A DNA stretch of 24,715 nucleotides from a virus (IMGVR_UViG_3300017788_000010), one strand, 5' to 3'. Counted from the first letter of the stretch, positions 2,653 through 16,998 are shown. Program-made: numbers and translations. The notes: generated by a model from the sequence alone, not told the origin.

Positions 2653-3583
2653 GGTAGCGCTCCTTTAGGACGTCAACTAGTTTTTTGATTCCGTATCCTG
2701 CGCCCACAAGAACACCAGCCTCTAATAGGAACCTGACAGGATTATCTACAGCTGCTGCGCCTATTCCGCTAATCGCTTTGATAGGGCGTTTCATCTTATT
2801 ACGCTCGCCCGCTGCTGCTACTGCCATGCTTTTTAATATAGCGGAGCGGCTTATAAGCGGGTGATTTTTCTGTATTAAGAGGTTAGCTAAGGCCTCTCTC
2901 TTGTTTATAAGGCTCGATGGCGCCTTAAGCATCTGTCTATTGTAGAAAATAACCGGACCATCAAGCGTCTGACCCACTAAACCAGGGGTACGCAGGCCCT
3001 TTTCTCTCCTCATATGAGCCAGATTTTTTGCAAAGAAGAGATCAGCCTGTTCCGGTGTGTCTCCTTGTAGCTTTGCCAAGCGCCGGAACATCAATTTTTG
3101 CTTCTGAATCGCTGGAGAATTGTCAGAAAGTAGCGCTTTTCCCAGAACATCTGACTCAACAACCTGCATACCAGACCGTAATTTACTAATTCTGTCCGCA
3201 GAGATGCCAAAAGCGACCTTTTTTAGTGGCTCCATGCTCAAAATAGCCCTAGTTTGTGTAATAAGAGGCATAGTAAAGACAGTTTGTGGCTTCTCCAGCA
3301 CCAAATCTCGTAGTGTACCGTCTTTCTCGGACACTTCTTTGGTCTTCCACTGCTCTCCGTACTTATTTTTGAGGTAGTTCTCAATAAGACGCAGGCTACG
3401 AAACCCGTTGTACAACATTCCCGCTACCGCAGCGGTCCCAGCCACTCTTTTAATCGTTTCACCCCGCGTAGCTGACGCCGGAATCAGCTTTTTGAGGCCA
3501 AATAGAGATCCGTACAGCCCTGCTTGTAGCAATTGGGCGTTTAAAGCCTTCTTTTTGCTCTGTGCGAGATCTGAGTCGCTCAT
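2615..3583 (-). CDS. Basic hypothetical protein (322 aa) with internal LKKVA motif; putative virion protein
   Basis: Long ORF overlapping both neighbours; Gly-rich hydrophobic segments near both ends. Confidence 0.75.
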   Translation of the reverse strand: MSDSDLAQSKKKALNAQLLQAGLYGSLFGLKKLIPASATRGETIKRVAGTAAVAGMLYNGFRSLRLIENYLKNKYGEQWKTKEVSEKDGTLRDLVLEKPQTVFTMPLITQTRAILSMEPLKKVAFGISADRISKLRSGMQVVESDVLGKALLSDNSPAIQKQKLMFRRLAKLQGDTPEQADLFFAKNLAHMRREKGLRTPGLVGQTLDGPVIFYNRQMLKAPSSLINKREALANLLIQKNHPLISRSAILKSMAVAAAGERNKMKRPIKAISGIGAAAVDNPVRFLLEAGVLVGAGYGIKKLVDVLKERYRERKRLGKTKTS

Positions 3584-3789
3584 TGTATGTTATAATTGAA
3601 CGATCCTGGCTTATTTTTGGGCGGCTTTGACAGCTTATTGGCTATGGAAGAGACTGCGTTGCCTCCCAATGTCATCGCAGCGCCAGAAACGAGGCCGCCT
3701 ATTACCGGCTTAGCTAGAGCACCAACTAAGGGAGCAACTGCTGTTTTTTTCAGCTCTTCTTTAAAGCCTTTGTAAAAATATGATTGCAT
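3580..3789 (-). CDS. Small protein with N-terminal GFKEELKKTA motif
   Basis: ATG preceded by a GGAGA Shine-Dalgarno-like sequence; 4-nt overlap with the next gene. Confidence 0.7.
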   Translation of the reverse strand: MQSYFYKGFKEELKKTAVAPLVGALAKPVIGGLVSGAAMTLGGNAVSSIANKLSKPPKNKPGSFNYNIQ

Positions 3790-4758: not shown

Positions 4759-4835
4759 CGCGCTGTAGAGCAGTCCGGCAGCTCGTCAGGCTCATAACCT
4801 GAAGGCCGCGGGTTCGAATCCCGCCAGCGCAACCA
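4759..4835 (+). tRNA. tRNA-fMet (CAU), initiator
   Basis: Full cloverleaf, C1:A72 mismatch, anticodon arm TCAGG-CTCATAA-CCTGA, encoded CCA. Confidence 0.92.
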
Positions 4836-4840
4836 AAAAC

Positions 4841-4906
4841 AGCCGGCCGTACGACAGCGGGTTAACATTTTCAGGTTTATCCCCGTTGTCACCCTTTTTG
4901 TCGGCA
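4841..4906 (+). ncRNA. Y-RNA-like element Y1 (short form)
   Basis: GCCGGC(4842-4847)CGT pairs with TTT-GTCGGC(4900-4905); inner helix GACAGCGGG/CCCGTTGTC; GTTAAC at +19. Confidence 0.6.
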
Positions 4907-4913
4907 GCAAATG

Positions 4914-4965
4914 TGCGGCCGCCTGAGCATCGCTCTGGCCGCAAAGGTGAGCCCTAACCAGGCAC
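4914..4965 (+). other. Compact pseudoknotted element with HDV-ribozyme-like topology (unassigned)
   Basis: TGCGGCC/GGCCGCA stem; GCCTG in its loop pairs with downstream CAGGC; inner GAGC/GCTC; CTAA precedes the CAGGC strand. Catalytic-core consensus is only partly met. Confidence 0.3.
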
Positions 4966-4980
4966 GCCTTTTTTAGAAAC

Positions 4981-5109
4981 AGCTAGCCGTAAGCTACTCG
5001 TTACCACTCAAAGGTAGTAGTCTGGGTTCGATTCCCGGTGGCCCGACCAACACAGGGCCATAGTGTAATGGATAGCACACTAAAACCGAATAGCTAAATT
5101 TTGCTAGCA
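4981..5109 (+). ncRNA. Y-RNA-like element Y2 with circularly permuted tRNA domain (YrlA-like)
   Basis: Closing helix GCTAGC 4982-4987/5103-5108. T-arm CTGGG-TTCGATT-CCCGG (5022-5038), acceptor stem TGGCCCG/AGGGCCA closed by the loop ACCAACAC, then D-arm GTGT-AATGGATA-GCAC. Order is T, acceptor, D; no anticodon loop. Confidence 0.75.
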
Positions 5110-5112
5110 TCT

Positions 5113-5187
5113 GCGGGTATAACTCAATGGTAGAGTGTCAGCCTTCCAAGCTGAATGTTGAGGGTTCAAGTCCCTCTGTCCGCTCCA
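5113..5187 (+). tRNA. tRNA-Gly (UCC)
   Basis: Full cloverleaf, TCAGC-CTTCCAA-GCTGA, U73, encoded CCA. Confidence 0.93.
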
Positions 5188-5192
5188 TAAAC

Positions 5193-5252
5193 AGCCAGCC
5201 GCCGCTTTTGGGTTACCTTTGTAAAATCACCCATTAGCAACTTTTGCTGGCA
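5193..5252 (+). ncRNA. Y-RNA-like element Y3 (short form)
   Basis: GCCAGC(5194-5199)CG pairs with TTT-GCTGGC(5246-5251); inner GCT/AGC and TGGGT/ACCCA helices; GTTACC at +18. Confidence 0.6.
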
Positions 5253-5254
5253 AT

Positions 5255-5892
5255 TCATCCCGTAGGGAGCAGCGGGCTCCCTAGACCCTACTGTTACGTT
5301 AAGAGAAAACACCTTGCCAGCGTGCGGGTACATAGGGCGCGACTCCCTATACAGTAAGGTCGTTTCACAGAGGTAGCTCAAACAGTAGAGCGACTTCCAT
5401 ATATAGGTTCGCCTGGTTTCAATAGCTGGGCCTATTATAAGGGGAGCTTTGTCGACAAAGTCCCCCCTTATCCGAGGCACGCGTTAAACGCGCTGCTCTA
5501 TCACAGGTCTCCCGGCCTGTCGGTTAGCTGATGTACCATTCGCCCTAAGTAAGCTGTAAAACCCATTGGGCTATGTTGGGGGATTTGCTGGTTTATCCAT
5601 TATTGCTTCCTGAGAGGATAGCATAAAACCAGCTTTACCACAGACGCATCCAGAAAAAGATAAGTAACTAAGCGATACAGCTACTTAATTCGGAGCCTGT
5701 GGGAAGTTATCGCCGGGCCTGGAATAGTTTGGGGGTTTGGACACCCAGAAGCCTGATAAGACCCCTGTGGTTGGCGGATCCGCACAAAACCGCCATTAAA
5801 GAGCATGACAAAAAAGCATTCTTGCACACAAATCATGCGCCGTAAAGTTGCTACGGAAAGCGTCAGAGACGCGGGGCACAGCCCCCTTTTTT
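5255..5892 (+). ncRNA. Unassigned hairpin-dense ~640-nt non-coding region (one large or several small RNAs)
   Basis: No credible ORF. Many helices (5263-5270/5276-5283; 5437-5444/5463-5470; 5587-5594/5626-5633); ends in a GGGGC-ACA-GCCCC hairpin plus a T-run. Confidence 0.4.
5367..5437 (+). pseudogene. Degenerate tRNA-like sequence
   Basis: TA-GCTC-AAACAGTA-GAGC D-arm and a TTCAATA T-loop with a wobble-rich stem, but poor acceptor and anticodon stems and no CCA. Confidence 0.35.
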
Positions 5893-5905
5893 GTAAATGC
5901 CGTCA

Positions 5906-6019
5906 TGGCCGGACACGGTTGATTTTCAAGAACAGCTCAAGTAACTAGCCACACCCTCGCGTTACTTCGCGTATACGAGGCAGAAGCAGTCAGTAGCTGT
6001 TATTGATCGTGTCCGGCCA
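5906..6019 (+). ncRNA. Unassigned 114-nt rod-like RNA immediately upstream of tRNA-Thr
   Basis: Perfect 12-bp terminal helix TGGCCGGACACG/CGTGTCCGGCCA, extended by GTTGAT/ATTGAT; inner AACAGCT/AGCTGTT. Confidence 0.45.
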
Positions 6020-6057
6020 GCTTGCTGGAGTAGCTCAGTTGGTAGAGCTTTTGATTT

Positions 6058-6803
6058 GTTAGAATGATTTATTGTCTGCGTATCGTTGTCTTCGGACGTG
6101 TCGCCCAAAACCGCGATTTCTGCCCTTGTATGTAGATAGCTGTGAGTCACAGTTGTGGCATATGAGGCGTAAATTGGTTCTGTTGTTGTCGGTGTAGTCT
6201 CCATTGATATGGTCCAAAACAAAAAACAGTGGCTTGCCGTTCCAATTTCCTGGTTGGGCGCACAAGGCACATTTCTCTAGCTGGTCTTTCAATAACCAGG
6301 AACGGATAACGTCTCTTTGATAAGAAGAGATGCGCGTCTCCTGTCCTAATAACCAGCTGGCGATCTTTGTATCGGCCCTAAGTCTATGGAAGCATTCCAA
6401 ATTACAGAACCTCCGGTTAAGGGTACCTTTTCCGCAACTAAAACAACAAGAATCCTGGCGGAGTCTCGCTCTCTTAGGTTTCTTCCTGTTGTTGTAGCTA
6501 GCGGAGCAAGATCGAGAACAGAACGCGTTCACAGAACGTGCTTTGTCTTTTCGAGAAAACGTTATTTGACACTCAGCGCAGCAATAGGTCATAATACGGA
6601 CCTTTCTAGGGAAACCTATAAAGTGGACGCCGCTAAGTCGGGGAAACCTGTAAAATGGCAATCCCGAGCTAGCAGGTTCCTAAAAGAACCGGGCAAGTGT
6701 AGAGACTTTACACGGCGCACCCTAACGTAAAGCCGAGGGTGAAGAGAAAGTCCATCCCACTAGACTAGTGTAATGTAGTCGAACGAAAGTTCAAAGTGGG
6801 CAG
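6058..6803 (+). mobile_element. Group I self-splicing intron between tRNA positions 34 and 35
   Basis: P (AAGTCGGGGAAA 6635-6646), Q (AATCCCGAGC 6660-6669), R (GTAGAGACTT 6699-6708) and S (GAAGAGAAAGTCC 6741-6753) motifs; P7 GACTT/AAGTC; P3 CGCCG/CGGCG; GAAA-capped P9; terminal G; short P1 with a U34.G wobble. Confidence 0.88.
6059..6592 (-). CDS. HNH homing endonuclease with Cys-rich zinc-binding motifs, antisense within the intron
   Basis: CALC...LDHINGDYTDNNRTNLRLICHNC HNH signature. ATG at 6592 has an AGAAAGG SD and is preferred over the track start at 6661, which lies inside the ribozyme core. Confidence 0.85.
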   Translation of the reverse strand: MTYCCAECQITFSRKDKARSVNAFCSRSCSASYNNRKKPKRARLRQDSCCFSCGKGTLNRRFCNLECFHRLRADTKIASWLLGQETRISSYQRDVIRSWLLKDQLEKCALCAQPGNWNGKPLFFVLDHINGDYTDNNRTNLRLICHNCDSQLSTYKGRNRGFGRHVRRQRYADNKSF

Positions 6804-6849
6804 GTAATCAAAGGGTCATGGGTTCGAGTCCCATCTCCAGCTCCACACG

Positions 6850-6923
6850 GGGATCATAGTTCAATGGTAGAACAACGGACTTTTAATCCGTCTACCGGAG
6901 TTCGATTCTCCGTGATCCCACCA
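6850..6923 (+). tRNA. tRNA-Lys (UUU)
   Basis: Full cloverleaf, ACGGA-CTTTTAA-TCCGT, encoded CCA. Confidence 0.92.
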
Positions 6924-6932
6924 CCCAACAAT

Positions 6933-7008
6933 AGCTAGCCGTTACCACTCCGTTACCTTTCTCTTCAACAAGAGACCCATGTCACAGGATGGTAAATATT
7001 TGCTAGCA
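6933..7008 (+). ncRNA. Y-RNA-like element Y4 (short form)
   Basis: GCTAGC 6934-6939/7002-7007; inner TTACCA/TGGTAA and TCC/GGA; GTTACC at +18; apical TCTCTT/AAGAGA hairpin. Confidence 0.6.
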
Positions 7009-7010
7009 AT

Positions 7011-7045
7011 TCCCTGGTAGCTCAATGGTAGAGCAGCGCTTGTTA
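7011..7045 (+). pseudogene. Orphan 5' half of a tRNA (Asn-like, GUU)
   Basis: TCCCTGG-TA-GCTC-AATGGTA-GAGC-A-GCGC-TT-GTT-A. The anticodon-stem strand is 1 nt short and no matching 3' half (CCAGGGA) was seen nearby. Confidence 0.5.
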
Positions 7046-7070
7046 TGCCTCCACATATCTGTACATATTT

Positions 7071-7436
7071 GTGTATATGGATACATTAGAAAAGCACATC
7101 ACTAAGACATGTAAACAGCACGGAGAGACGATATACACCTACGTACCGAGTAGGAAACACTACCGCTGTTCACAGTGTCTAGGTGTGGCCGTAACGAAGC
7201 GGCGTCGAAAGCTGAAAGAGCTTGCCGTGGCGTACCTGGGCGGCGCATGCGCTGTCTGTGGGTACAACAAATGCGTAGCCGCTCTAGAGTTTCACCACAG
7301 AGACCCTGTGGCCAAGGACTTTAGCATATCAAGCACGGGTACTACACGATCTTTTGATAAGATTAAAGTAGAGCTGGATAAGTGCTTGCTTCTCTGCGCT
7401 AACTGTCACAGAGAACACCACGCCGGCGTAGAGTAA
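7071..7436 (+). CDS. HNH endonuclease, free-standing
   Basis: CAVCGY...LEFHHRDP...LDKCLLLCANCHREHH signature. Start at 7071 or 7077. Confidence 0.88.
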   Translation: MYMDTLEKHITKTCKQHGETIYTYVPSRKHYRCSQCLGVAVTKRRRKLKELAVAYLGGACAVCGYNKCVAALEFHHRDPVAKDFSISSTGTTRSFDKIKVELDKCLLLCANCHREHHAGVE

Positions 7437-7448
7437 CCCCCCAAAAAC

Positions 7449-7579
7449 AGCCGGCCGTCGATTGTCCGTTACCTTTTCTGAAAAAAAAGAAGTCCTGGGT
7501 TCGAGTCCCAGCGGGTCCGCCTAACGGGCCTGTAGTTTAATGGTTAAAACAATGACTGGACCATCATCCTTTGCCGGCA
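7449..7579 (+). ncRNA. Y-RNA-like element Y5 with circularly permuted tRNA domain (YrlA-like)
   Basis: Closing helix GCCGGC 7450-7455/7573-7578. T-arm CTGGG-TTCGAGT-CCCAG (7495-7511), acceptor stem CGGGTCC/GGGCCTG closed by GCCTAAC, D-arm GTTT-AATGGTTA-AAAC; AGTC/GACT replaces the anticodon stem. Confidence 0.75.
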
Positions 7580-7623
7580 CCTCAAAGTGCGCCCGTAGCT
7601 CAGCTGGATAGAGCATTCGATTT

Positions 7624-8264
7624 TGCAAAGTCGGCTAAACTTGGTATACTATACCAAGCATGCTGACCACTGGGACCTATTTGTGGAAGATTGAGAAGAT
7701 AGTTAGTAAAGGAACCTATAACTACGCTGTGGTACGGAACCACCCAAAAGCAGACAAGCATGGGTACGTTTTGGAGCACCGCGTGGTAGTAGAAAACCAC
7801 CTGAACAGACTTCTCAATTCGGATGAAATTGTGCACCATAAAAATGGGCAGAAGAAAGACAACCGGATCACAAATCTGGAAGTACTAACTACCCTGGCGC
7901 ACAATCGTGAGCACAGTAAAGATGTCGGAAAAAGGTGGGTAACATTAAGGTGCCCAAACTGTTCCGCTCTTTTCGACAAGCCACGTAACCAAACTTTCCT
8001 GGATAAAGGAGGCGAGTCTACATGTTGCTCACGGCGATGCCGTGGTCAATTTAGTGCACGCATTCAGTACCAAGGAAGAACACAAATAGTGGAGGATGCC
8101 ATATCAGGGAATCTCGTACGGGAGTACCGCAAGTACTACCGCGACAACCCTGAGGAAACCGCCTAACTCGGGTTCCGCAGAGACTGTACGCATCCCACCT
8201 GAGACGGTGAAGATACAGTCCAGCCCACAACGCGAAAGCGGTCTACGTAAGTAGTCGTGGGAGG
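7624..8264 (+). mobile_element. Group I self-splicing intron, probably between tRNA positions 34 and 35
   Basis: P (ATATCAGGGAA 8101-8111), Q (AACCCTGAG 8146-8154), R (CAGAGACTG 8178-8186) and S (GAAGATACAGTCC 8209-8221); P7 GACTGT/ACAGTC; P3 5' strand GGATGC at 8094-8099 with a complement just after R; GAAA-capped P9; CCCAC/GTGGG as in the Thr intron. Confidence 0.87.
7660..8166 (+). CDS. Intron-encoded HNH homing endonuclease with C-terminal Cys motifs
   Basis: YVLEHRVV...EIVHHKNGQKKDNRITNLE HNH signature; CPNC and CCSRRC motifs. Confidence 0.88.
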   Translation: MLTTGTYLWKIEKIVSKGTYNYAVVRNHPKADKHGYVLEHRVVVENHLNRLLNSDEIVHHKNGQKKDNRITNLEVLTTLAHNREHSKDVGKRWVTLRCPNCSALFDKPRNQTFLDKGGESTCCSRRCRGQFSARIQYQGRTQIVEDAISGNLVREYRKYYRDNPEETA

Positions 8265-8338
8265 CTAATCGAATGGTCGTAGGTTCAAATCCTACCGGGC
8301 GCACCACCTACCCATGGGGCAATAAACATTATTTTTAC

Positions 8339-8368
8339 CAAAAGGACACGCTTATCTGTCATAAGATA
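8339..8368 (+). promoter_or_regulatory. Recurrent promoter-like motif (CAAAA...TGTCATAAGATA)
   Basis: Match to the window-wide motif, upstream of the SPFH-HD gene run. Confidence 0.6.
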
Positions 8369-8395
8369 AATGTCCGTAAGAAAGGACTGCCCGTG

Positions 8396-8635
8396 ATGCT
8401 ACGTGTACTTGTTTCTATCGTCGGCGCGGCCGCCATATTTACGATCGGATACCTCACCGGTCGCTTCATAACAAAGAAATACACTCGCAGTATGTTACGT
8501 CATGAGCTGGCGCTATTTTACAACGCAATAATCCAGAATATAAAGCTCGGCAAAGAAAGCCGTGAAAGACTTGATTCTATCTACGCTACACAAGTCCCCG
8601 ACCTAGAACCTTACGAAAGAAACGACTTCCAGTGA
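8396..8635 (+). CDS. Small membrane protein (79 aa)
   Basis: AAAGGA SD at 8381-8386 supports a start at 8393 or 8396 rather than 8273 (inside the tRNA); N-terminal transmembrane helix. Confidence 0.6.
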   Translation: MLRVLVSIVGAAAIFTIGYLTGRFITKKYTRSMLRHELALFYNAIIQNIKLGKESRERLDSIYATQVPDLEPYERNDFQ

Positions 8636-9510
8636 CTCGTTACAACGATGGCCCGTCCCTCAAGGGAATTGTCTTCACAGTCTTGACCGTCGTGGCGCTG
8701 GCAATCGCAGCGCTCCTGGGAGTGAGCTCCTGGGAAACGGCCGAGCCCGGTACGGTGAAAGTGCCTGTGCTCTTCGGCGAGCTGCAGCGCAAGGAGCTGC
8801 GCGGCCCGGAATTCACCAATCCTTTCTATGAGTGGAGAGAGTATGACCTCAAGATGCAAACAGAGGTCATGGAGGACATCTCCATTTTCACACAGGATCA
8901 ATTGCCTGTCGTTGGCGACATCACGGTACAGTGGCAACTGAACCCGGAGTCGGTTTTCGACGTGGCTATGACCATCGGGACGATGCGCGATCTGGATACA
9001 AAGATCGTACTACCTGCCATCAGGGGCGCCGTGCGTGATGCTGGCAAGATGCTCAAGAGCAATTCGGATCTGTTTACTCCAGAAGGTGAAGCCGTCTTCT
9101 CAAAGACTTTCCGAGAGCAGCTAGAGGAGTCCGTCAGTAAACACATCACGATCCTAGCGGTTATTACGCGCGACATGGTCCCTCCTCAGGAGGTTCAAAA
9201 CGCGATTGTTGCAAAAATAAAGGCTGCCCAAGAGGTGGAGCAGCAGAAAGCCATTCTGGACAAGAAGGACCTGGAATCGCAAGAGCGGATCAGGATCTCA
9301 AAATCCGAGCGAGAGGCCTCCGAGAACACGGCCGCTGCCAAAAAAATACTGGCCGATGCAGAAGCATACTCTATCACAGAGGTGGGTAAAGCCCTCGCGG
9401 CAACGCCGGGGGTTGTGCAGCTGCGGTATCTGGAGAGGTGGGATGGAAAGCTGCCCACTATGATGCTCGGCGATGGCGGTAACATGATGATCCAGCTGCC
9501 GGTAAAATGA
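8632..9510 (+). CDS. SPFH / Band 7 / prohibitin-family membrane protein
   Basis: N-terminal transmembrane helix, SPFH core, AI.AK..A.Q coiled coil, and the C-terminal ERWDGKLP motif typical of phage SPFH proteins. Confidence 0.88.
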   Translation: MTRYNDGPSLKGIVFTVLTVVALAIAALLGVSSWETAEPGTVKVPVLFGELQRKELRGPEFTNPFYEWREYDLKMQTEVMEDISIFTQDQLPVVGDITVQWQLNPESVFDVAMTIGTMRDLDTKIVLPAIRGAVRDAGKMLKSNSDLFTPEGEAVFSKTFREQLEESVSKHITILAVITRDMVPPQEVQNAIVAKIKAAQEVEQQKAILDKKDLESQERIRISKSEREASENTAAAKKILADAEAYSITEVGKALAATPGVVQLRYLERWDGKLPTMMLGDGGNMMIQLPVK

Positions 9511-9513
9511 GAT

Positions 9514-9975
9514 ATGCAGGCGCGCAGTAAAGAACTAGAGCTAGCCATTCGCATAGCTGTAGCCGCGCACAAGGGCCAGTCTGACAAAGCTGGCCTGCCT
9601 TATATACTACACCCATTGGCAGTTATGAACGCTGTCGAAACGATAGATGAGAAGATTGTCGCAGTCCTACATGACGCGGTAGAGGACAGCGAGGAGCTTT
9701 CCATCGATGGTATCAGGTTCGACACACGGACTTATATTGTCGACTCTATTTCAAAACGATGTGTAGACGCCATACTGCTCCTAACAAAGACAGACGGCGT
9801 TACATATAACGACTATATAAACCGGGTGTGTGAGAATAGACTGGCTGCCGTAGTAAAAAAGGCAGACATAGCACACAACCTATCCCGCCTACATAACCTG
9901 AAGCCCGAAGACCGGACTAGGTTAGCAAAAAAGTACACCAGCGCGATGGAGTTGCTCCAAAAAGTGCTGAAGTAA
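9514..9975 (+). CDS. Stand-alone HD-domain hydrolase of RelA/SpoT-hydrolase (small alarmone hydrolase-like) type
   Basis: AH.GQ.DK.G.PYI.HP, AVLHDAVED and VK.AD..HN motifs; no synthetase domain. Confidence 0.82.
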   Translation: MQARSKELELAIRIAVAAHKGQSDKAGLPYILHPLAVMNAVETIDEKIVAVLHDAVEDSEELSIDGIRFDTRTYIVDSISKRCVDAILLLTKTDGVTYNDYINRVCENRLAAVVKKADIAHNLSRLHNLKPEDRTRLAKKYTSAMELLQKVLK

Positions 9976-10125
9976 AGCTTGTCTCCGCTAAGTTATGTGT
10001 CTTAGATGGATGAAAAAAACAAAACAAGCGTCTAGGTAGCAAAAAACACTTCGTGAGCCCAAAATGCTTTTCATGCACGGTACGTAAAGCCGTGCCTTTT
10101 CTGTACCCGAACTACAGGCGACCAA

Positions 10126-11697
10126 GTGACAAGATACGGACAACACACTACTTATACACAGAGGGAGCAGGCCCCGGGAACCGTTGCAAACAACGGCGGC
10201 GGCTTCTCCTTCCAATTAGACAAATGGAAACAACTCGATCGCTTTCTGATTTTAGGAAGTGAGGGCGGTACTTATTACGTTGGTGAGCGCAAACTGACCA
10301 GACAAAACGCCACCTGCATAGAGGCGTGCATACAAGAAGATCCGGCAAGGACTGTTCGCAGAATAGAGGAGATCAGCGTAGGTGGAAGAGCTCACAAGAA
10401 CGCGCCCGCCGTGTTCGCTCTCTCGCTGTGCGCCTCCAGCAAAAACCTCGCGGCGAGACAGCTCGCTCTAGAGGCAATGAAGCGGGTATGTCGCACCAGC
10501 ACAGACCTCTTCTCATTTATCGGCGATGTCCAGGAACAGCGTGGTTGGGGCCACTCGTTCAAAAAGGCTGTGTCGCGCTGGTATCTGAGCAAGACTCCTG
10601 AAGCCTTGGCCTATCAGCTGGTCAAATATCGCCAGAGAGAAGGGTGGTCACACAGAGACGCCATACGGCTCTCGCACCCTAAGGCGCATAACATCCCTAT
10701 GAACCACCTACTAGGGTGGGCGGTCGACAAGCACAACGACCTGTCCACGCTTCCGGCGTTGGTGCGGGACTTCACGGATCTGCAGACATGCTCCTCCGTG
10801 AAAGACGCTGTCCGTGTCATACAGCGCAACTCGGCGCTGACCTGGGAAATGGTGCCGACGGAGCTACTGGCGCACAACGCTGTGTGGCGCGCTCTGCTAC
10901 CGAACATGCCGCTGACGGCCATGTTGCGCAATCTCGGAAGAATGACCGCCTACGGTACACTAACCGAACTATCTGACGAAATCGCTACGGTTCGTTCGAA
11001 GATGTTGGATGAGACGTACTTGAAAAAGTCACGCGTGCATCCGATGGCTATTCTGAACGCGTTGCTGGTGTATGGAAAGGGGCACGGTCTCAAAGGCTCG
11101 CTATCCTGGACTCCTCAGCAAGAAATCAAAACAATACTCAATGAGGCGTTCTACCTGTCCTTCAAAACAGTGGAGCCCATCAACAAGAGCGTTATGATAG
11201 CGCTAGACGTTTCTGGTTCTATGGGTACCACCATAGGACAAAACGTTATGAGCTGCAGAGACGCTACGGCGGCGCTATCCCTAGTGACGGCCCGGACAGA
11301 GCCTCGCCATATAATCAAAATGTTCCAAAAAAGTTTGTCCGATTGCCCGATTGTGGCTGGCGATACGCTGGAAACAGCGATTCGTAAGATAAACGGGATA
11401 CCGTTCGGAGCGACAGATTGCGCCTCACCTATCACGTGGGCGACTGCGAACAAGGTGCCTGTCGACCTTTTCGCAATCTACACGGATAACGAGACCAACG
11501 GGTCGTCTATGCACCCTAACAAGGCCCTGGAGAAATACCAGCAGGCCATGGGCAGGGCTGCTAGAATGGTAGTGGTGGGTATGACCTCCACCGGGTTCAC
11601 CATAAGTGATCCGAACAATCCCAACTGTTTGGACGTTGTGGGGTTCGATACCGACACACCGAACCTGATCTCGGCCTTCGGGCGCGGCGAGATCTGA
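10126..11697 (+). CDS. rsr: Ro60 / Rsr ribonucleoprotein (TROVE domain plus vWA domain)
   Basis: N..GGFSF...LDRFLILGSEGGTYY, KYRQREGWSHRD, MPLTAMLRNLGRMT, HPMAILNA and vWA MIDAS motif DVSGSM ... TDNET: the full Ro60 signature set. Confidence 0.95.
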   Translation: MTRYGQHTTYTQREQAPGTVANNGGGFSFQLDKWKQLDRFLILGSEGGTYYVGERKLTRQNATCIEACIQEDPARTVRRIEEISVGGRAHKNAPAVFALSLCASSKNLAARQLALEAMKRVCRTSTDLFSFIGDVQEQRGWGHSFKKAVSRWYLSKTPEALAYQLVKYRQREGWSHRDAIRLSHPKAHNIPMNHLLGWAVDKHNDLSTLPALVRDFTDLQTCSSVKDAVRVIQRNSALTWEMVPTELLAHNAVWRALLPNMPLTAMLRNLGRMTAYGTLTELSDEIATVRSKMLDETYLKKSRVHPMAILNALLVYGKGHGLKGSLSWTPQQEIKTILNEAFYLSFKTVEPINKSVMIALDVSGSMGTTIGQNVMSCRDATAALSLVTARTEPRHIIKMFQKSLSDCPIVAGDTLETAIRKINGIPFGATDCASPITWATANKVPVDLFAIYTDNETNGSSMHPNKALEKYQQAMGRAARMVVVGMTSTGFTISDPNNPNCLDVVGFDTDTPNLISAFGRGEI

Positions 11698-11704
11698 TAA
11701 TTAT

Positions 11705-11731
11705 AAGAAGTAGGCCTCCTACTTCTTTTTT
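11705..11731 (+). terminator. Intrinsic terminator after the Ro60 gene
   Basis: AAGAAGTAGG-CCT-CCTACTTCTT followed by a T-run. Confidence 0.75.
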
Positions 11732-11767
11732 ACACTATACTTAAATAGGTTCCTTAAGGAGATAACC

Positions 11768-13474: not shown

Positions 13475-13805
13475 TGACCCTTGCATTGTGGGCAGGCCGG
13501 CCTGTGCGGGGTCATATGTTGGGGGAGGTGGTCGACCGAAAGCGGCGACCTCCCCCATTTGCGTACTTCTACGTGGGCTAGGCCACGATAAACAGGTCTT
13601 TAAGCCTAGCGCGTTGAAAAGGTAGACGAGCCTTAGTATCTTTGCGACTAGTCACCGCTCTGATGCAAACGGCCCCGGAAGTTCTTATCCTGCTATAGAT
13701 CTTCTGAAAAAAAAAGCAGACAGCAGCGAGCTGTGGAAGAGCCGGGCACGGCTCTAGCACACAAAAGGCGGTGGGGGTTGCGCAACTCCCACCGCTTCTT
13801 TTTTT
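13475..13805 (+). ncRNA. Unassigned ~330-nt structured non-coding transcript
   Basis: Lies between a promoter motif and a terminator, has no credible ORF and contains several strong hairpins. Confidence 0.45.
13768..13805 (+). terminator. Intrinsic terminator
   Basis: GCGGTGGGGG/CTCCCACCGC stem plus TTCTTTTTT. Confidence 0.75.
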
Positions 13806-16921: not shown

Positions 16922-16998
16922 GGGCCATTAGCTCAGTTGGTTAGAGCAGGGGACTCATAATCCTCTGGTCGAAGGTTCGAGTCCTTCATGGCCCACCA
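16922..16998 (+). tRNA. tRNA with CAU anticodon, most likely tRNA-Ile2 (lysidine type)
   Basis: Full cloverleaf, GGGGA-CTCATAA-TCCTC, G1-C72, the C4-G69 and C5-G68 pairs recognised by TilS, A73, encoded CCA. Confidence 0.9.

What the first reader, a model, noticed from the sequence alone, without database searches (positions are those of the whole stretch)
4841..11697. Phage-encoded Ro60 with an array of five Y-RNA-like elements interleaved with tRNAs
Seen: five dispersed elements (4841-4906, 4981-5109, 5193-5252, 6933-7008, 7449-7579) start with AAYA-GCYRGC-CGY and end with TTT-G[C/T]YRGC-A. The 6-bp closing helix shows compensatory changes (bp3/bp4 are C-G/G-C in Y1 and Y5, U-A/A-U in Y2 and Y4, C-G/A-U in Y3) and is followed by an unpaired C and a possible G.U pair. 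Each element abuts a tRNA or tRNA half: Y1 and Y3 begin about 6 nt after a CCA, Y4 about 10 nt after one, and Y2, Y4 and Y5 end 3-10 nt before a tRNA 5' end. A full-length Ro60/Rsr gene lies at 10126-11697. Established: Ro60 binds a bulged-C terminal helix of Y RNAs (metazoan GCUGGUCCG/UUGACUAGC, which these resemble minus one pair), and bacterial or phage Y RNAs are encoded near rsr. Inference: the phage makes a family of five Ro60 adaptors, released from a polycistronic precursor by tRNA-end processing, which could direct Ro60 (with PNPase or other partners) to different substrates or act as decoys in tRNA-targeting defence. One or two Y RNAs per rsr locus is the familiar case; I know of no description of a five-member tRNA-punctuated array.
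Basis: partly seen in the sequence, partly recalled or inferred. Interest (0 to 1): 0.95.

Follow-up and report, generated by a model that had tools for sequence, protein, structure and literature searches.

The report
Phage Ro60 gene with five Y RNAs
An uncultured large phage carries a Ro60 RNA-chaperone gene and, scattered through the tRNA cluster upstream, five small RNAs of the known Y RNA (YrlA) family that very probably bind it. This is a real but fairly ordinary case, because similar three- to five-copy arrays sit beside Ro60 genes in many other phage contigs.

Summary
Five plus-strand elements share AAYA-GCYRGC-CG at the 5' end and UUU-GYYRGC-A at the 3' end, and each folds with a 6-bp closing helix. 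A sister phage (Ro60 70% identical) holds five more. Across these ten copies the closing helix is paired in every copy, and 5 of its 6 pairs show compensatory changes.

Models built only from these two phages find homologous RNAs in most of 80 unrelated Ro60-encoding viral contigs and beside the Ro genes of phages Cali and Cashline. Every hit is on the Ro60 strand and nearly all lie within about 1.5 kb upstream or 2.5 kb downstream of the gene. The family shares a helix, a near-invariant unpaired C then G, a second stem, UUAYC, and YUU before the 3' strand. Y2 and Y5 also carry the permuted tRNA-like domain that defines YrlA. Y1, Y3 and Y4 are short forms without it.

The Y RNA reading is therefore well supported. 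The novelty claim is not. About a quarter of the other loci have 3-5 copies, and eight others have tRNAs between copies. A tRNA-linked Y RNA precursor is published for Deinococcus. This scan has also reported such arrays on other DNA. Binding and function remain untested.

The parts
4841..4906 (+). Y1: short-form Y RNA with closing helix GCCGGC/GUCGGC, an unpaired C then G, a 9-bp second stem and a GUUAAC loop motif. It has no tRNA-like domain.
   Evidence: Fold -23.8 kcal/mol, z -4.05. R2 66.9 bits. Family model R3 30.9 bits, E 3e-6.
4981..5109 (+). Y2: YrlA-type Y RNA. It has closing helix GCUAGC, a second stem, GUUACC, then a T-arm, an acceptor-like stem-loop containing ACCA, and a D-arm (a permuted tRNA-like domain).
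   Evidence: Fold. R1 148.7 bits. R3 104.8 bits, E 5e-27. Consensus structure with compensatory pairs.
5193..5252 (+). Y3: short-form Y RNA with closing helix GCCAGC/GCUGGC and GUUACC.
   Evidence: Fold z -2.9. R2 73.3 bits. R3 41.8 bits, E 2e-9.
6933..7008 (+). Y4: short-form Y RNA with closing helix GCUAGC and GUUACC. Its ortholog in the sister phage is L001 1937-2019.
   Evidence: Fold z -4.7. R2 67.4 bits. 81% identical to L001 1929-2048.
7449..7579 (+). Y5: YrlA-type Y RNA with closing helix GCCGGC. Its ortholog, L001 2096-2231, has GCCAGC/GCUGGC instead, a compensatory change.
   Evidence: R1 131.6 bits. R3 106.4 bits. Rfam YrlA local match 26.3 bits to the T/acceptor/D part. 83% identical to L001.
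10126..11697 (+). Ro60/Rsr gene, 523 aa, with a TROVE ring and a vWA domain that has the DxSxS metal site.
   Evidence: Pfam. PDB matches 9nen, 1yvp and 2nvo. 6646 homologues at E<=1e-20.
4759..4835 (+). tRNA-Met(CAU) with encoded CCA, 6 nt upstream of Y1.
   Evidence: ARAGORN and Rfam.
5113..5187 (+). tRNA-Gly(UCC), lying between Y2 and Y3.
6024..6845 (+). tRNA-Thr(UGU) split by a group I intron that carries an antisense HNH gene. The sister phage has the intron-less gene.
   Evidence: Intron_gpI 54.3 bits at 6580-6772. L001 tRNA-Thr 1537-1612. Exon matches to L001.
6850..6923 (+). tRNA-Lys(UUU), 10 nt upstream of Y4.
7011..7047 (+). 5' remnant of tRNA-Asn(GUU). It matches the intact sister gene up to the anticodon stem and is then replaced by an HNH ORF (7071-7436). 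No 3' half was found.
   Evidence: Sequence compared with the intact L001 tRNA-Asn 2020-2094. HNH Pfam match, weak.
7589..8306 (+). tRNA-Arg(UCU) split by a group I intron that carries an HNH_3 ORF. It starts 9 nt downstream of Y5.
   Evidence: Intron_gpI 27 bits at 8037-8236. HNH_3 1e-8. Intact L001 tRNA-Arg 3533-3609.
4914..4973 (+). Two hairpins followed by a U6 run between Y1 and Y2. This is a possible intrinsic terminator that would separate Y1 from Y2.
   Evidence: Fold -29.6 kcal/mol, z -2.8. The consensus terminator scan did not call it.
5873..5895 (+). Terminator-like hairpin plus U-run at the end of the conserved non-coding block. It is conserved in the sister phage.
8632..9975 (+). 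SPFH/Band 7 gene (8632-9510) and a small HD-domain gene (9514-9975), directly upstream of Ro60. The same pair sits upstream of Ro60 in the sister phage.
   Evidence: Pfam. L001 gene table.
11705..11733 (+). Hairpin plus U-run after the Ro60 stop codon.
   Evidence: Fold.

Best explanation
The five elements are paralogous Y RNAs of the bacterial/phage YrlA family and the cognate partners of the phage's own Ro60.

Shown by sequence comparison: all five share one 'handle'. It consists of a 6-bp terminal helix, an unpaired C, a G facing a U of the 3' U-run, a second stem, and a UUAYC motif. Y2 and Y5 also display a permuted tRNA-like module (T-arm, acceptor-like stem-loop, D-arm) on this handle, which is the YrlA architecture. 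Y1, Y3 and Y4 carry only a short pyrimidine-rich hairpin, like the second, shorter Y RNAs (YrlB, Yrn2) of studied bacteria.

Inferred:
- The RNAs are transcribed with the neighbouring tRNAs, in probably two to four units.
- They are released by the host's tRNA-end processing: RNase P at the downstream tRNA 5' end, and 3' trimming after the upstream CCA.
- The handle docks on the outer surface of the Ro60 ring, as in solved Ro60-Y RNA complexes.
- The variable end recruits or gates partners such as host PNPase, as shown for D. radiodurans and Thermus phage phiLo. This would change which structured RNAs are degraded or spared during infection.
For: 1. The motifs and folds are far beyond chance.
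2. A sister phage (Ro60 70% identical) has five homologous elements in the same tRNA cluster.
3. Across the ten copies the closing helix is 100% paired and 5 of 6 pairs change on both sides. The second stem has 7 of 8 such pairs. 0 of 500 shuffles reach the covariation score, and slid registers collapse to 17-53% paired.
4. Models R1 and R2, built only from these two phages, give 91 and 44 hits (E<=1) in 80 unrelated IMG/VR Ro60 loci. Every hit is on the Ro60 strand.
5. The iterated model R3 gives 172 hits (E<=0.001), again all on that strand. Of the 139 elements kept after tRNA filtering (window and sister included), 94 lie within 1.5 kb upstream of Ro60 and 33 downstream of its start.
6. R3 gives no hit in 149 kb of 16 unrelated viral loci.
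7. R1 finds the element 159-307 nt upstream of the Ro gene of mycobacteriophage Cali, a Bxz1-type phage of the group in which YrlA was published, and two tandem ones upstream of Ro in Gordonia phage Cashline.
8. The family's near-invariant positions are C 145/146, G 139/147, UUA-Y-C (147, 146, 137, 136 and 145 of about 148), and UU before the 3' strand (121 and 117 of 147). The five window elements carry them, apart from Y1's A at the Y of UUAYC.
9. Ro60 is full-length with both domains.
10. Published precedent: YrlA plus a second Y RNA per species, and a Yrn2-tRNA-Asp-Yrn1 precursor (PMC4201824). Phage phiLo Ro60 binds two phage Y-like RNAs through a stem-bulge-stem containing CGAA and joins host PNPase (PMC12135203).
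Against: 2. The published GNCGAA / CGAA motif is only half kept. The five read GCCG followed by UA, UA, CC, UU and UC. In phiLo each CGAA base mattered 3-4 fold for binding (PMC12135203).
3. The Rfam YrlA model gives only 26.3 bits against a threshold of 69. The Cali and Cashline RNAs also fail it, at 36 and 42 bits.
4. The array lies 2.5-5.3 kb from Ro60, with other genes between. Elements in other loci sit mostly within 1.5 kb.
5. No PNPase, RtcB or other known partner gene was recognised in the window.
Confidence: 0.8

Rival explanations
1. Only one or two of the five (most likely the YrlA-type Y2 and Y5) are working Y RNAs. The short forms are decaying duplicates that lost the tRNA-like module and persist as processing debris in the tRNA cluster.
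For: Y1, Y3 and Y4 lack the T/acceptor/D domain. The order and number of elements differ between the two sister phages, and Y1 and Y3 have no BLAST-level ortholog, which suggests turnover. The neighbourhood is visibly eroded by mobile HNH genes, as the tRNA-Asn remnant shows.
Against: The short forms keep all near-invariant handle positions and paired, covarying stems. Short forms of 60-95 nt recur beside Ro60 in many unrelated loci, for example L016, L021, L033 and L035. Studied bacteria each have a second, shorter hairpin Y RNA that binds Rsr (PMC4201824).
Confidence: 0.1
2. The elements are structural punctuation of the tRNA operon, such as processing signals, exonuclease blocks or insulators. 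They would serve tRNA maturation and have nothing to do with Ro60.
For: Every element abuts a tRNA or tRNA remnant within 2-10 nt. The array is separated from Ro60 by 2.5 kb and several genes.
Against: Homologous elements track Ro60 genes. All 172 R3 hits are on the Ro60 strand and cluster next to it, including in loci with no tRNA nearby such as L012, L065, L075, L076 and L077. There are none in 149 kb of control viral DNA. The second tRNA-Met at 16922 in this window has no such element next to it.
Confidence: 0.06
3. The elements are selfish repeats: miniature inverted-repeat elements or homing-endonuclease target sites with palindromic ends (GCTAGC, GCCGGC).
For: Several closing helices are perfect palindromes. 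HNH genes and group I introns crowd the region.
Against: Non-palindromic helices (GCCAGC/GCUGGC, GCCGAC/GUCGGC, ACUAGC/GCUAGU) keep pairing through compensatory changes, which points to selection on RNA rather than DNA. All copies are on one strand. The sister phage has the elements without the HNH gene between Y4 and Y5. The interior motifs are conserved across unrelated phages.
Confidence: 0.03

Closest known systems
YrlA-type Y RNAs of bacteria and mycobacteriophages (Chen et al. 2014, PMC4201824; Rfam RF02553)
   Same: They lie on the same strand as the Ro60 gene. Y2 and Y5 share the 5'/3' helix, the GNCG part of the Ro-binding motif, the YUAY (here UUAC) start of the variable region, and the T-arm / acceptor-like stem-loop / D-arm order. 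The relationship is detectable by covariance model against the Cali and Cashline elements.
   Different: The AA of GNCGAA is replaced. The Rfam threshold is not reached. Three of the five lie beyond the 4-kb window used in that study. There are five copies, three of them without the tRNA-like domain.
D. radiodurans Yrn1/Yrn2 and the rsr-upstream small RNAs (PMC4201824)
   Same: Several small RNAs lie upstream of rsr. Yrn2, tRNA-Asp and Yrn1 are made as one precursor, so release of a Y RNA by tRNA processing has a precedent. Both strands of the Ro-binding helix are recognisable, as they are here.
   Different: That locus is a cellular gene cluster with two accepted Y RNAs. Yrn1's tRNA-like part is arranged differently from YrlA's.
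Thermus phage phiLo Ro60 with Yrl1/Yrl2 (PMC12135203, 2025)
   Same: It is a phage-encoded Ro60 with more than one phage-encoded Y-like RNA upstream. Binding through a stem-bulge-stem and complex formation with host PNPase were shown experimentally.
   Different: phiLo has two RNAs, was picked by the CGAA motif, and has no tRNA-like domain described. The protein is a divergent homologue, whereas this window's Ro60 is close to canonical Ro60.
Multi-copy Y RNA arrays beside Ro60 in uncultured phage contigs
   Same: They show the same handle, a mix of long and short forms, 3-5 copies, and in some cases tRNAs between copies. L040 runs Y, tRNA-Met, Y, Y, tRNA-Cys, Y, Y.
   Different: Those arrays are compact and lie within about 1.5 kb of Ro60. 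Here the copies are spread over 2.7 kb among intron-bearing tRNA genes and a 640-nt non-coding block.

Membership tests
YrlA-type Y RNA (Chen 2014 / RF02553) | Encoded on the same strand as the Ro60 ortholog | tested here: met
   All five elements and Ro60 are on the + strand.
YrlA-type Y RNA (Chen 2014 / RF02553) | Within 4 kb of the Ro60 gene (the criterion of that study) | tested here: inconclusive
   Y5 starts 2.7 kb and Y4 3.2 kb upstream of the Ro60 start, so both meet the criterion. Y1-Y3 start 4.9-5.3 kb upstream and do not.
YrlA-type Y RNA (Chen 2014 / RF02553) | GNCGAAN0-1G motif near the 5' end | tested here: not met
   The five read GCCG followed by UA, UA, CC, UU and UC, so only GNCG is kept. 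The sister-phage element L001 767-904 has GCCGAAUG, an exact match. Across the family the two positions are A or G in 113/147 and A in 96/147.
YrlA-type Y RNA (Chen 2014 / RF02553) | tRNA-like domain: T stem-loop, acceptor-like stem-loop, D stem-loop in that order | tested here: met
   Met for Y2 and Y5 (local Rfam YrlA match). Absent from Y1, Y3 and Y4, which are therefore not YrlA in the strict sense.
YrlA-type Y RNA (Chen 2014 / RF02553) | Conserved YUAY at the start of the variable region | tested here: met
   UUAC is present in Y2-Y5 and UUAA in Y1. UUAYC is near-invariant in 150 family members.
YrlA-type Y RNA (Chen 2014 / RF02553) | Score at or above the Rfam gathering threshold (69 bits) | tested here: not met
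   The best score is 26.3 bits, on Y5. The threshold does not discriminate for phage members: Cali scores 36.1 and Cashline 42.2 bits, and seven other Ro60 loci give nothing.
YrlA-type Y RNA (Chen 2014 / RF02553) | Bound by the cognate Ro60/Rsr | not testable with these tools
   Needs EMSA or pull-down.
Ro-binding helix of metazoan and Deinococcus Y RNAs | Terminal helix formed by the 5' and 3' ends, an unpaired C, then G paired to U | tested here: met
   At sequence level: a 6-bp helix in all ten copies. C then G follow the helix, and UU precedes the 3' strand, in all five and across the family. The geometry was not tested.
Short hairpin Y RNAs (YrlB / Yrn2 type) | [quoted passage not shown] | tested here: inconclusive
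   Y1, Y3 and Y4 fold as hairpins with U/C-rich loops. No curated model exists to test against.
Ro60/Rsr protein | TROVE HEAT-repeat ring plus C-terminal vWA domain with a DxSxS metal site | tested here: met
   Both Pfam domains are far above their cut-offs. The protein aligns end to end with human, Xenopus and Deinococcus Ro60, and DVSGS is present.

The most novel reading that the evidence does not exclude
The five paralogues are kept because they do different jobs on one Ro60 ring. The two tRNA-mimic forms have acceptor-like loops with an encoded N-CCA in Y2 and in both long forms of the sister phage. They could be cut by RNase P into two-piece, CCA-ended RNAs. These would engage tRNA-binding host factors or act as decoys for anticodon-nuclease defences. 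The three short forms would compete for the same site and switch Ro60 between tethered and free states.
Probability: 0.15. Interest if true: 0.6.

Novelty: new member of a known kind. Interest (0 to 1): 0.35.

Why it matters
The case adds a clean two-genome example of a phage Ro60 with a diversified Y RNA set. The set has two tRNA mimics and three short forms, with textbook compensatory changes in the protein-binding handle. The models built here also show that multi-copy Y RNA arrays, often mixed with tRNAs, are common beside phage Ro60 genes, and that the Rfam YrlA threshold misses them. This helps annotation and the choice of experimental systems. It does not open a new kind of biology, because the protein-RNA pairing, the tRNA mimicry and tRNA-linked processing are all published.

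Tried and rejected
- Rfam at gathering thresholds gave no Y RNA hit in the window or in seven other Ro60 loci. This reflects a narrow model and is not evidence of absence.
- No whole genome is held for this window.
- The single-protein search of IMG/VR found no close relatives, nor did the same search of metagenome contigs. An exact composite pattern also found nothing. The sister phage came from the protein database instead.
- DNA searches of known phages matched only tRNAs and an HNH gene.
- A 16-mer from the non-coding block gave 16 viral hits with no surrounding similarity, so they are chance matches. I reused them as negative-control DNA.
- Two reviews (PMC10870794, PMC6047535) and the supplementary tables of Chen 2014 are not held. 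I could not read the published copy numbers per phage.
- The shared 9-mer AACACCTTG upstream of tRNA-Met and inside the non-coding block is not enriched in the window. I make no promoter claim.
- I considered the 114-nt hairpin at 5906-6019 as a sixth Y element. I rejected it because the models do not match it as such.

Full report
**What is there**

The window comes from a large uncultured phage; no whole genome is held, and most ORFs are orphans. Between 4759 and 8306 lies a plus-strand tRNA cluster:
- tRNA-Met, tRNA-Gly and tRNA-Lys.
- tRNA-Thr and tRNA-Arg, each split by a group I intron with an HNH gene.
- A 5' remnant of tRNA-Asn.

The 3' motif TTTGYYRGCA occurs five times against 0.5 expected, only at the five element ends. 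The 5' motif GCYRGCCG has five plus-strand hits at the five starts. Each element folds with a 6-bp terminal helix, an internal loop and a second stem, with z-scores from -2.7 to -4.7. The ORF at 10126-11697 is a full-length Ro60: both TROVE and vWA_Ro60 are present, and it aligns end to end with human, Xenopus and Deinococcus Ro60 at E 1e-105 to 1e-112.

**A sister phage gives comparative evidence**

The closest Ro60 in the protein database is 70% identical and lies on a 37.7-kb Logan contig (locus L001). That contig starts inside the orthologous tRNA-Gly. It carries five homologous elements at 62-130, 131-198, 767-904, 1937-2019 and 2096-2231, in a similar but rearranged tRNA cluster.
- Orthologous pairs differ by compensatory changes. 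Y5 has GCCGGC/GCCGGC, while its ortholog has GCCAGC/GCUGGC.
- Across all ten copies the closing helix is paired in every cell, and five of its six pairs change on both sides.
- The second stem has seven of eight such pairs.
- No shuffle out of 500 reaches the observed covariation, and sliding the 3' partner drops pairing to 17-53%.
- In the four long copies the acceptor-like stem and D stem also covary.

**Identity**

Alignment shows two size classes built on one handle. The handle reads AAYA, a 6-bp helix, CG, a second stem, then G/C-UUA-C/A-C on the 5' side, and a U-run plus the complementary 6-mer and an A on the 3' side.
- Y2 and Y5 insert a T stem-loop, an acceptor-like stem-loop and a D stem-loop. 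This permuted tRNA-like domain defines YrlA RNAs (PMC4201824).
- Y1, Y3 and Y4 have only a pyrimidine-rich hairpin there.

I built covariance models from the two phages alone: R1 from the four long copies and R2 from the six short ones. I searched them against 80 IMG/VR contigs that encode Ro60 homologues of only 41-47% identity.
- R1 gave 91 hits and R2 gave 44 at E<=1. Every hit is on the Ro60 strand, and nearly all lie just upstream or just downstream of the gene.
- R1 also finds one element 159-307 nt upstream of the Ro gene of mycobacteriophage Cali, and two tandem ones upstream of Ro in Gordonia phage Cashline. Cali is a Bxz1-type phage, the group in which phage YrlA was first reported.
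- A model rebuilt from 42 hits, mostly from unrelated contigs (R3), still scores all five window elements, at E 2e-27 to 4e-6. Run without filters, it finds no sixth.
- R3 gives 172 hits in the Ro60 loci, all on the Ro60 strand, and none in 149 kb of unrelated viral DNA.

In the 150-member alignment the unpaired C (145/146), the following G (139/147), UUAYC, and the UU before the 3' strand are near-invariant. The window's elements carry these positions, apart from Y1's A at the Y of UUAYC.

The Rfam YrlA model reaches only 26.3 bits on Y5 against a threshold of 69. It also fails on the Cali and Cashline RNAs, at 36 and 42 bits, and on seven other loci. That failure therefore says little.

**How unusual is it?**

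I counted R3 hits after removing those that overlap tRNA genes. The 80 other Ro60 loci have this copy-number distribution:

| Copies per locus | Loci |
|---|---|
| 0 | 19 |
| 1 | 23 |
| 2 | 17 |
| 3 | 13 |
| 4 | 5 |
| 5 | 2 (L012, L040) |

One further locus falls among the low counts, which were not listed individually. The window and its sister also have five each. Eight other loci have tRNAs between copies; L040 runs Y, tRNA-Met, Y, Y, tRNA-Cys, Y, Y.

The literature already holds the main ideas:
- At least two Y RNAs per studied species, one a tRNA mimic and one a short hairpin.
- A Yrn2-tRNA-Asp-Yrn1 precursor in D. radiodurans, and YrlA in 22 phages (PMC4201824).
- Thermus phage phiLo Ro60 binding two phage Y-like RNAs and host PNPase (PMC12135203).
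- Three abundant RNAs next to an Rsr-like gene in a Listeria phage (PMC12282133).

Earlier reports of this scan describe arrays of four to a dozen such RNAs in other phages. What is particular here is the layout. The copies are spread over 2.7 kb, 2.5-5.3 kb from Ro60, among intron-bearing tRNA genes and a large non-coding block. Elsewhere the arrays are compact and mostly lie within 1.5 kb upstream of the gene or directly downstream of it.

**Mechanism**

Shown: the sequence family, its conserved structure, and its genomic linkage to Ro60.

Inferred from published systems:
- The handle binds the outer face of the Ro60 ring.
- The tRNA-like or hairpin end engages other factors such as PNPase.
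- The RNAs are cut out by tRNA-end processing. The 2-10-nt gaps to neighbouring tRNAs, kept in the sister phage, fit this.

A single precursor is unlikely. A double hairpin with a U6 run separates Y1 from Y2, and a conserved terminator-like hairpin ends the non-coding block before tRNA-Thr.

One point counts against simple equivalence with studied systems. The AA of the CGAA motif mattered 3-4 fold for phiLo binding, and it is replaced in all five copies.

**Limits**

Only one close relative is available. Copy numbers in other loci depend on my model thresholds, and my E-values are rough because calibration was shortened.

**Verdict**

The claim of an unprecedented array is not supported. This is a new member of a known kind and of moderate interest.

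Noticed in passing
window 5253-5895 (= L001 198-755): A non-coding block of about 640 nt between Y3 and tRNA-Thr is conserved in the sister phage: 71% identity over 369 nt and 83% over the first 70 nt. It starts with a hairpin that changes by compensatory substitutions (GGGAGC/GCUCCC versus GGGAUA/UAUCCC) and ends in a terminator-like hairpin plus U-run. It has no ORF of 60 aa or more on the plus strand and no Rfam match. It holds a conserved 17-codon ORF (about 5573-5626) whose differences between the two phages are mostly non-synonymous.
   Followed up: partly
window 5906-6019: A 114-nt near-perfect long hairpin (-47.9 kcal/mol, z -4.3) lies directly upstream of tRNA-Thr. It is absent from the sister phage, which has a YrlA-type element at the corresponding place. 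The Y RNA models do not match it.
   Followed up: partly
window 13572-13627 (+): A Pistol self-cleaving ribozyme match lies above the Rfam gathering score (46.5 against 34.5 bits).
   Followed up: no
window 7011-7436: tRNA-Asn(GUU) is intact in the sister phage (L001 2020-2094). Here it is cut off within the anticodon stem and followed by a free-standing HNH ORF (7071-7436). No 3' half and no group I core are detectable.
   Followed up: partly
window 5040-5056; L001 830-846 and 2166-2176: The acceptor-like loops of Y2 and of both long elements of the sister phage contain a discriminator-like base plus CCA right after the 3' strand of the stem, as in a permuted tRNA gene. Y5 reads GCCU instead. 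This fits the RNase P cleavage and CCA end reported for M. smegmatis YrlA.
   Followed up: partly
L012, L040, L065, L075, L077, L017, L024 (IMG/VR Ro60 loci): These are compact arrays of four to five Y RNA-like elements next to Ro60. Several mix long tRNA-mimic and short forms, and L040 has tRNA-Met and tRNA-Cys between copies. ARAGORN calls a 'tRNA-Thr' in L036 and L051 that overlaps a YrlA-type element, which is probably a mis-call of the tRNA-like domain.
   Followed up: partly
window 8632-9975 and L001 3924-5265: An SPFH/Band 7 gene and a small HD-domain gene sit directly upstream of Ro60 in both phages, so the three genes may form one conserved module.
   Followed up: no
window 16922-16998: A second tRNA-Met(CAU) lies far from the main tRNA cluster and has no Y-like element beside it.
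   Followed up: no
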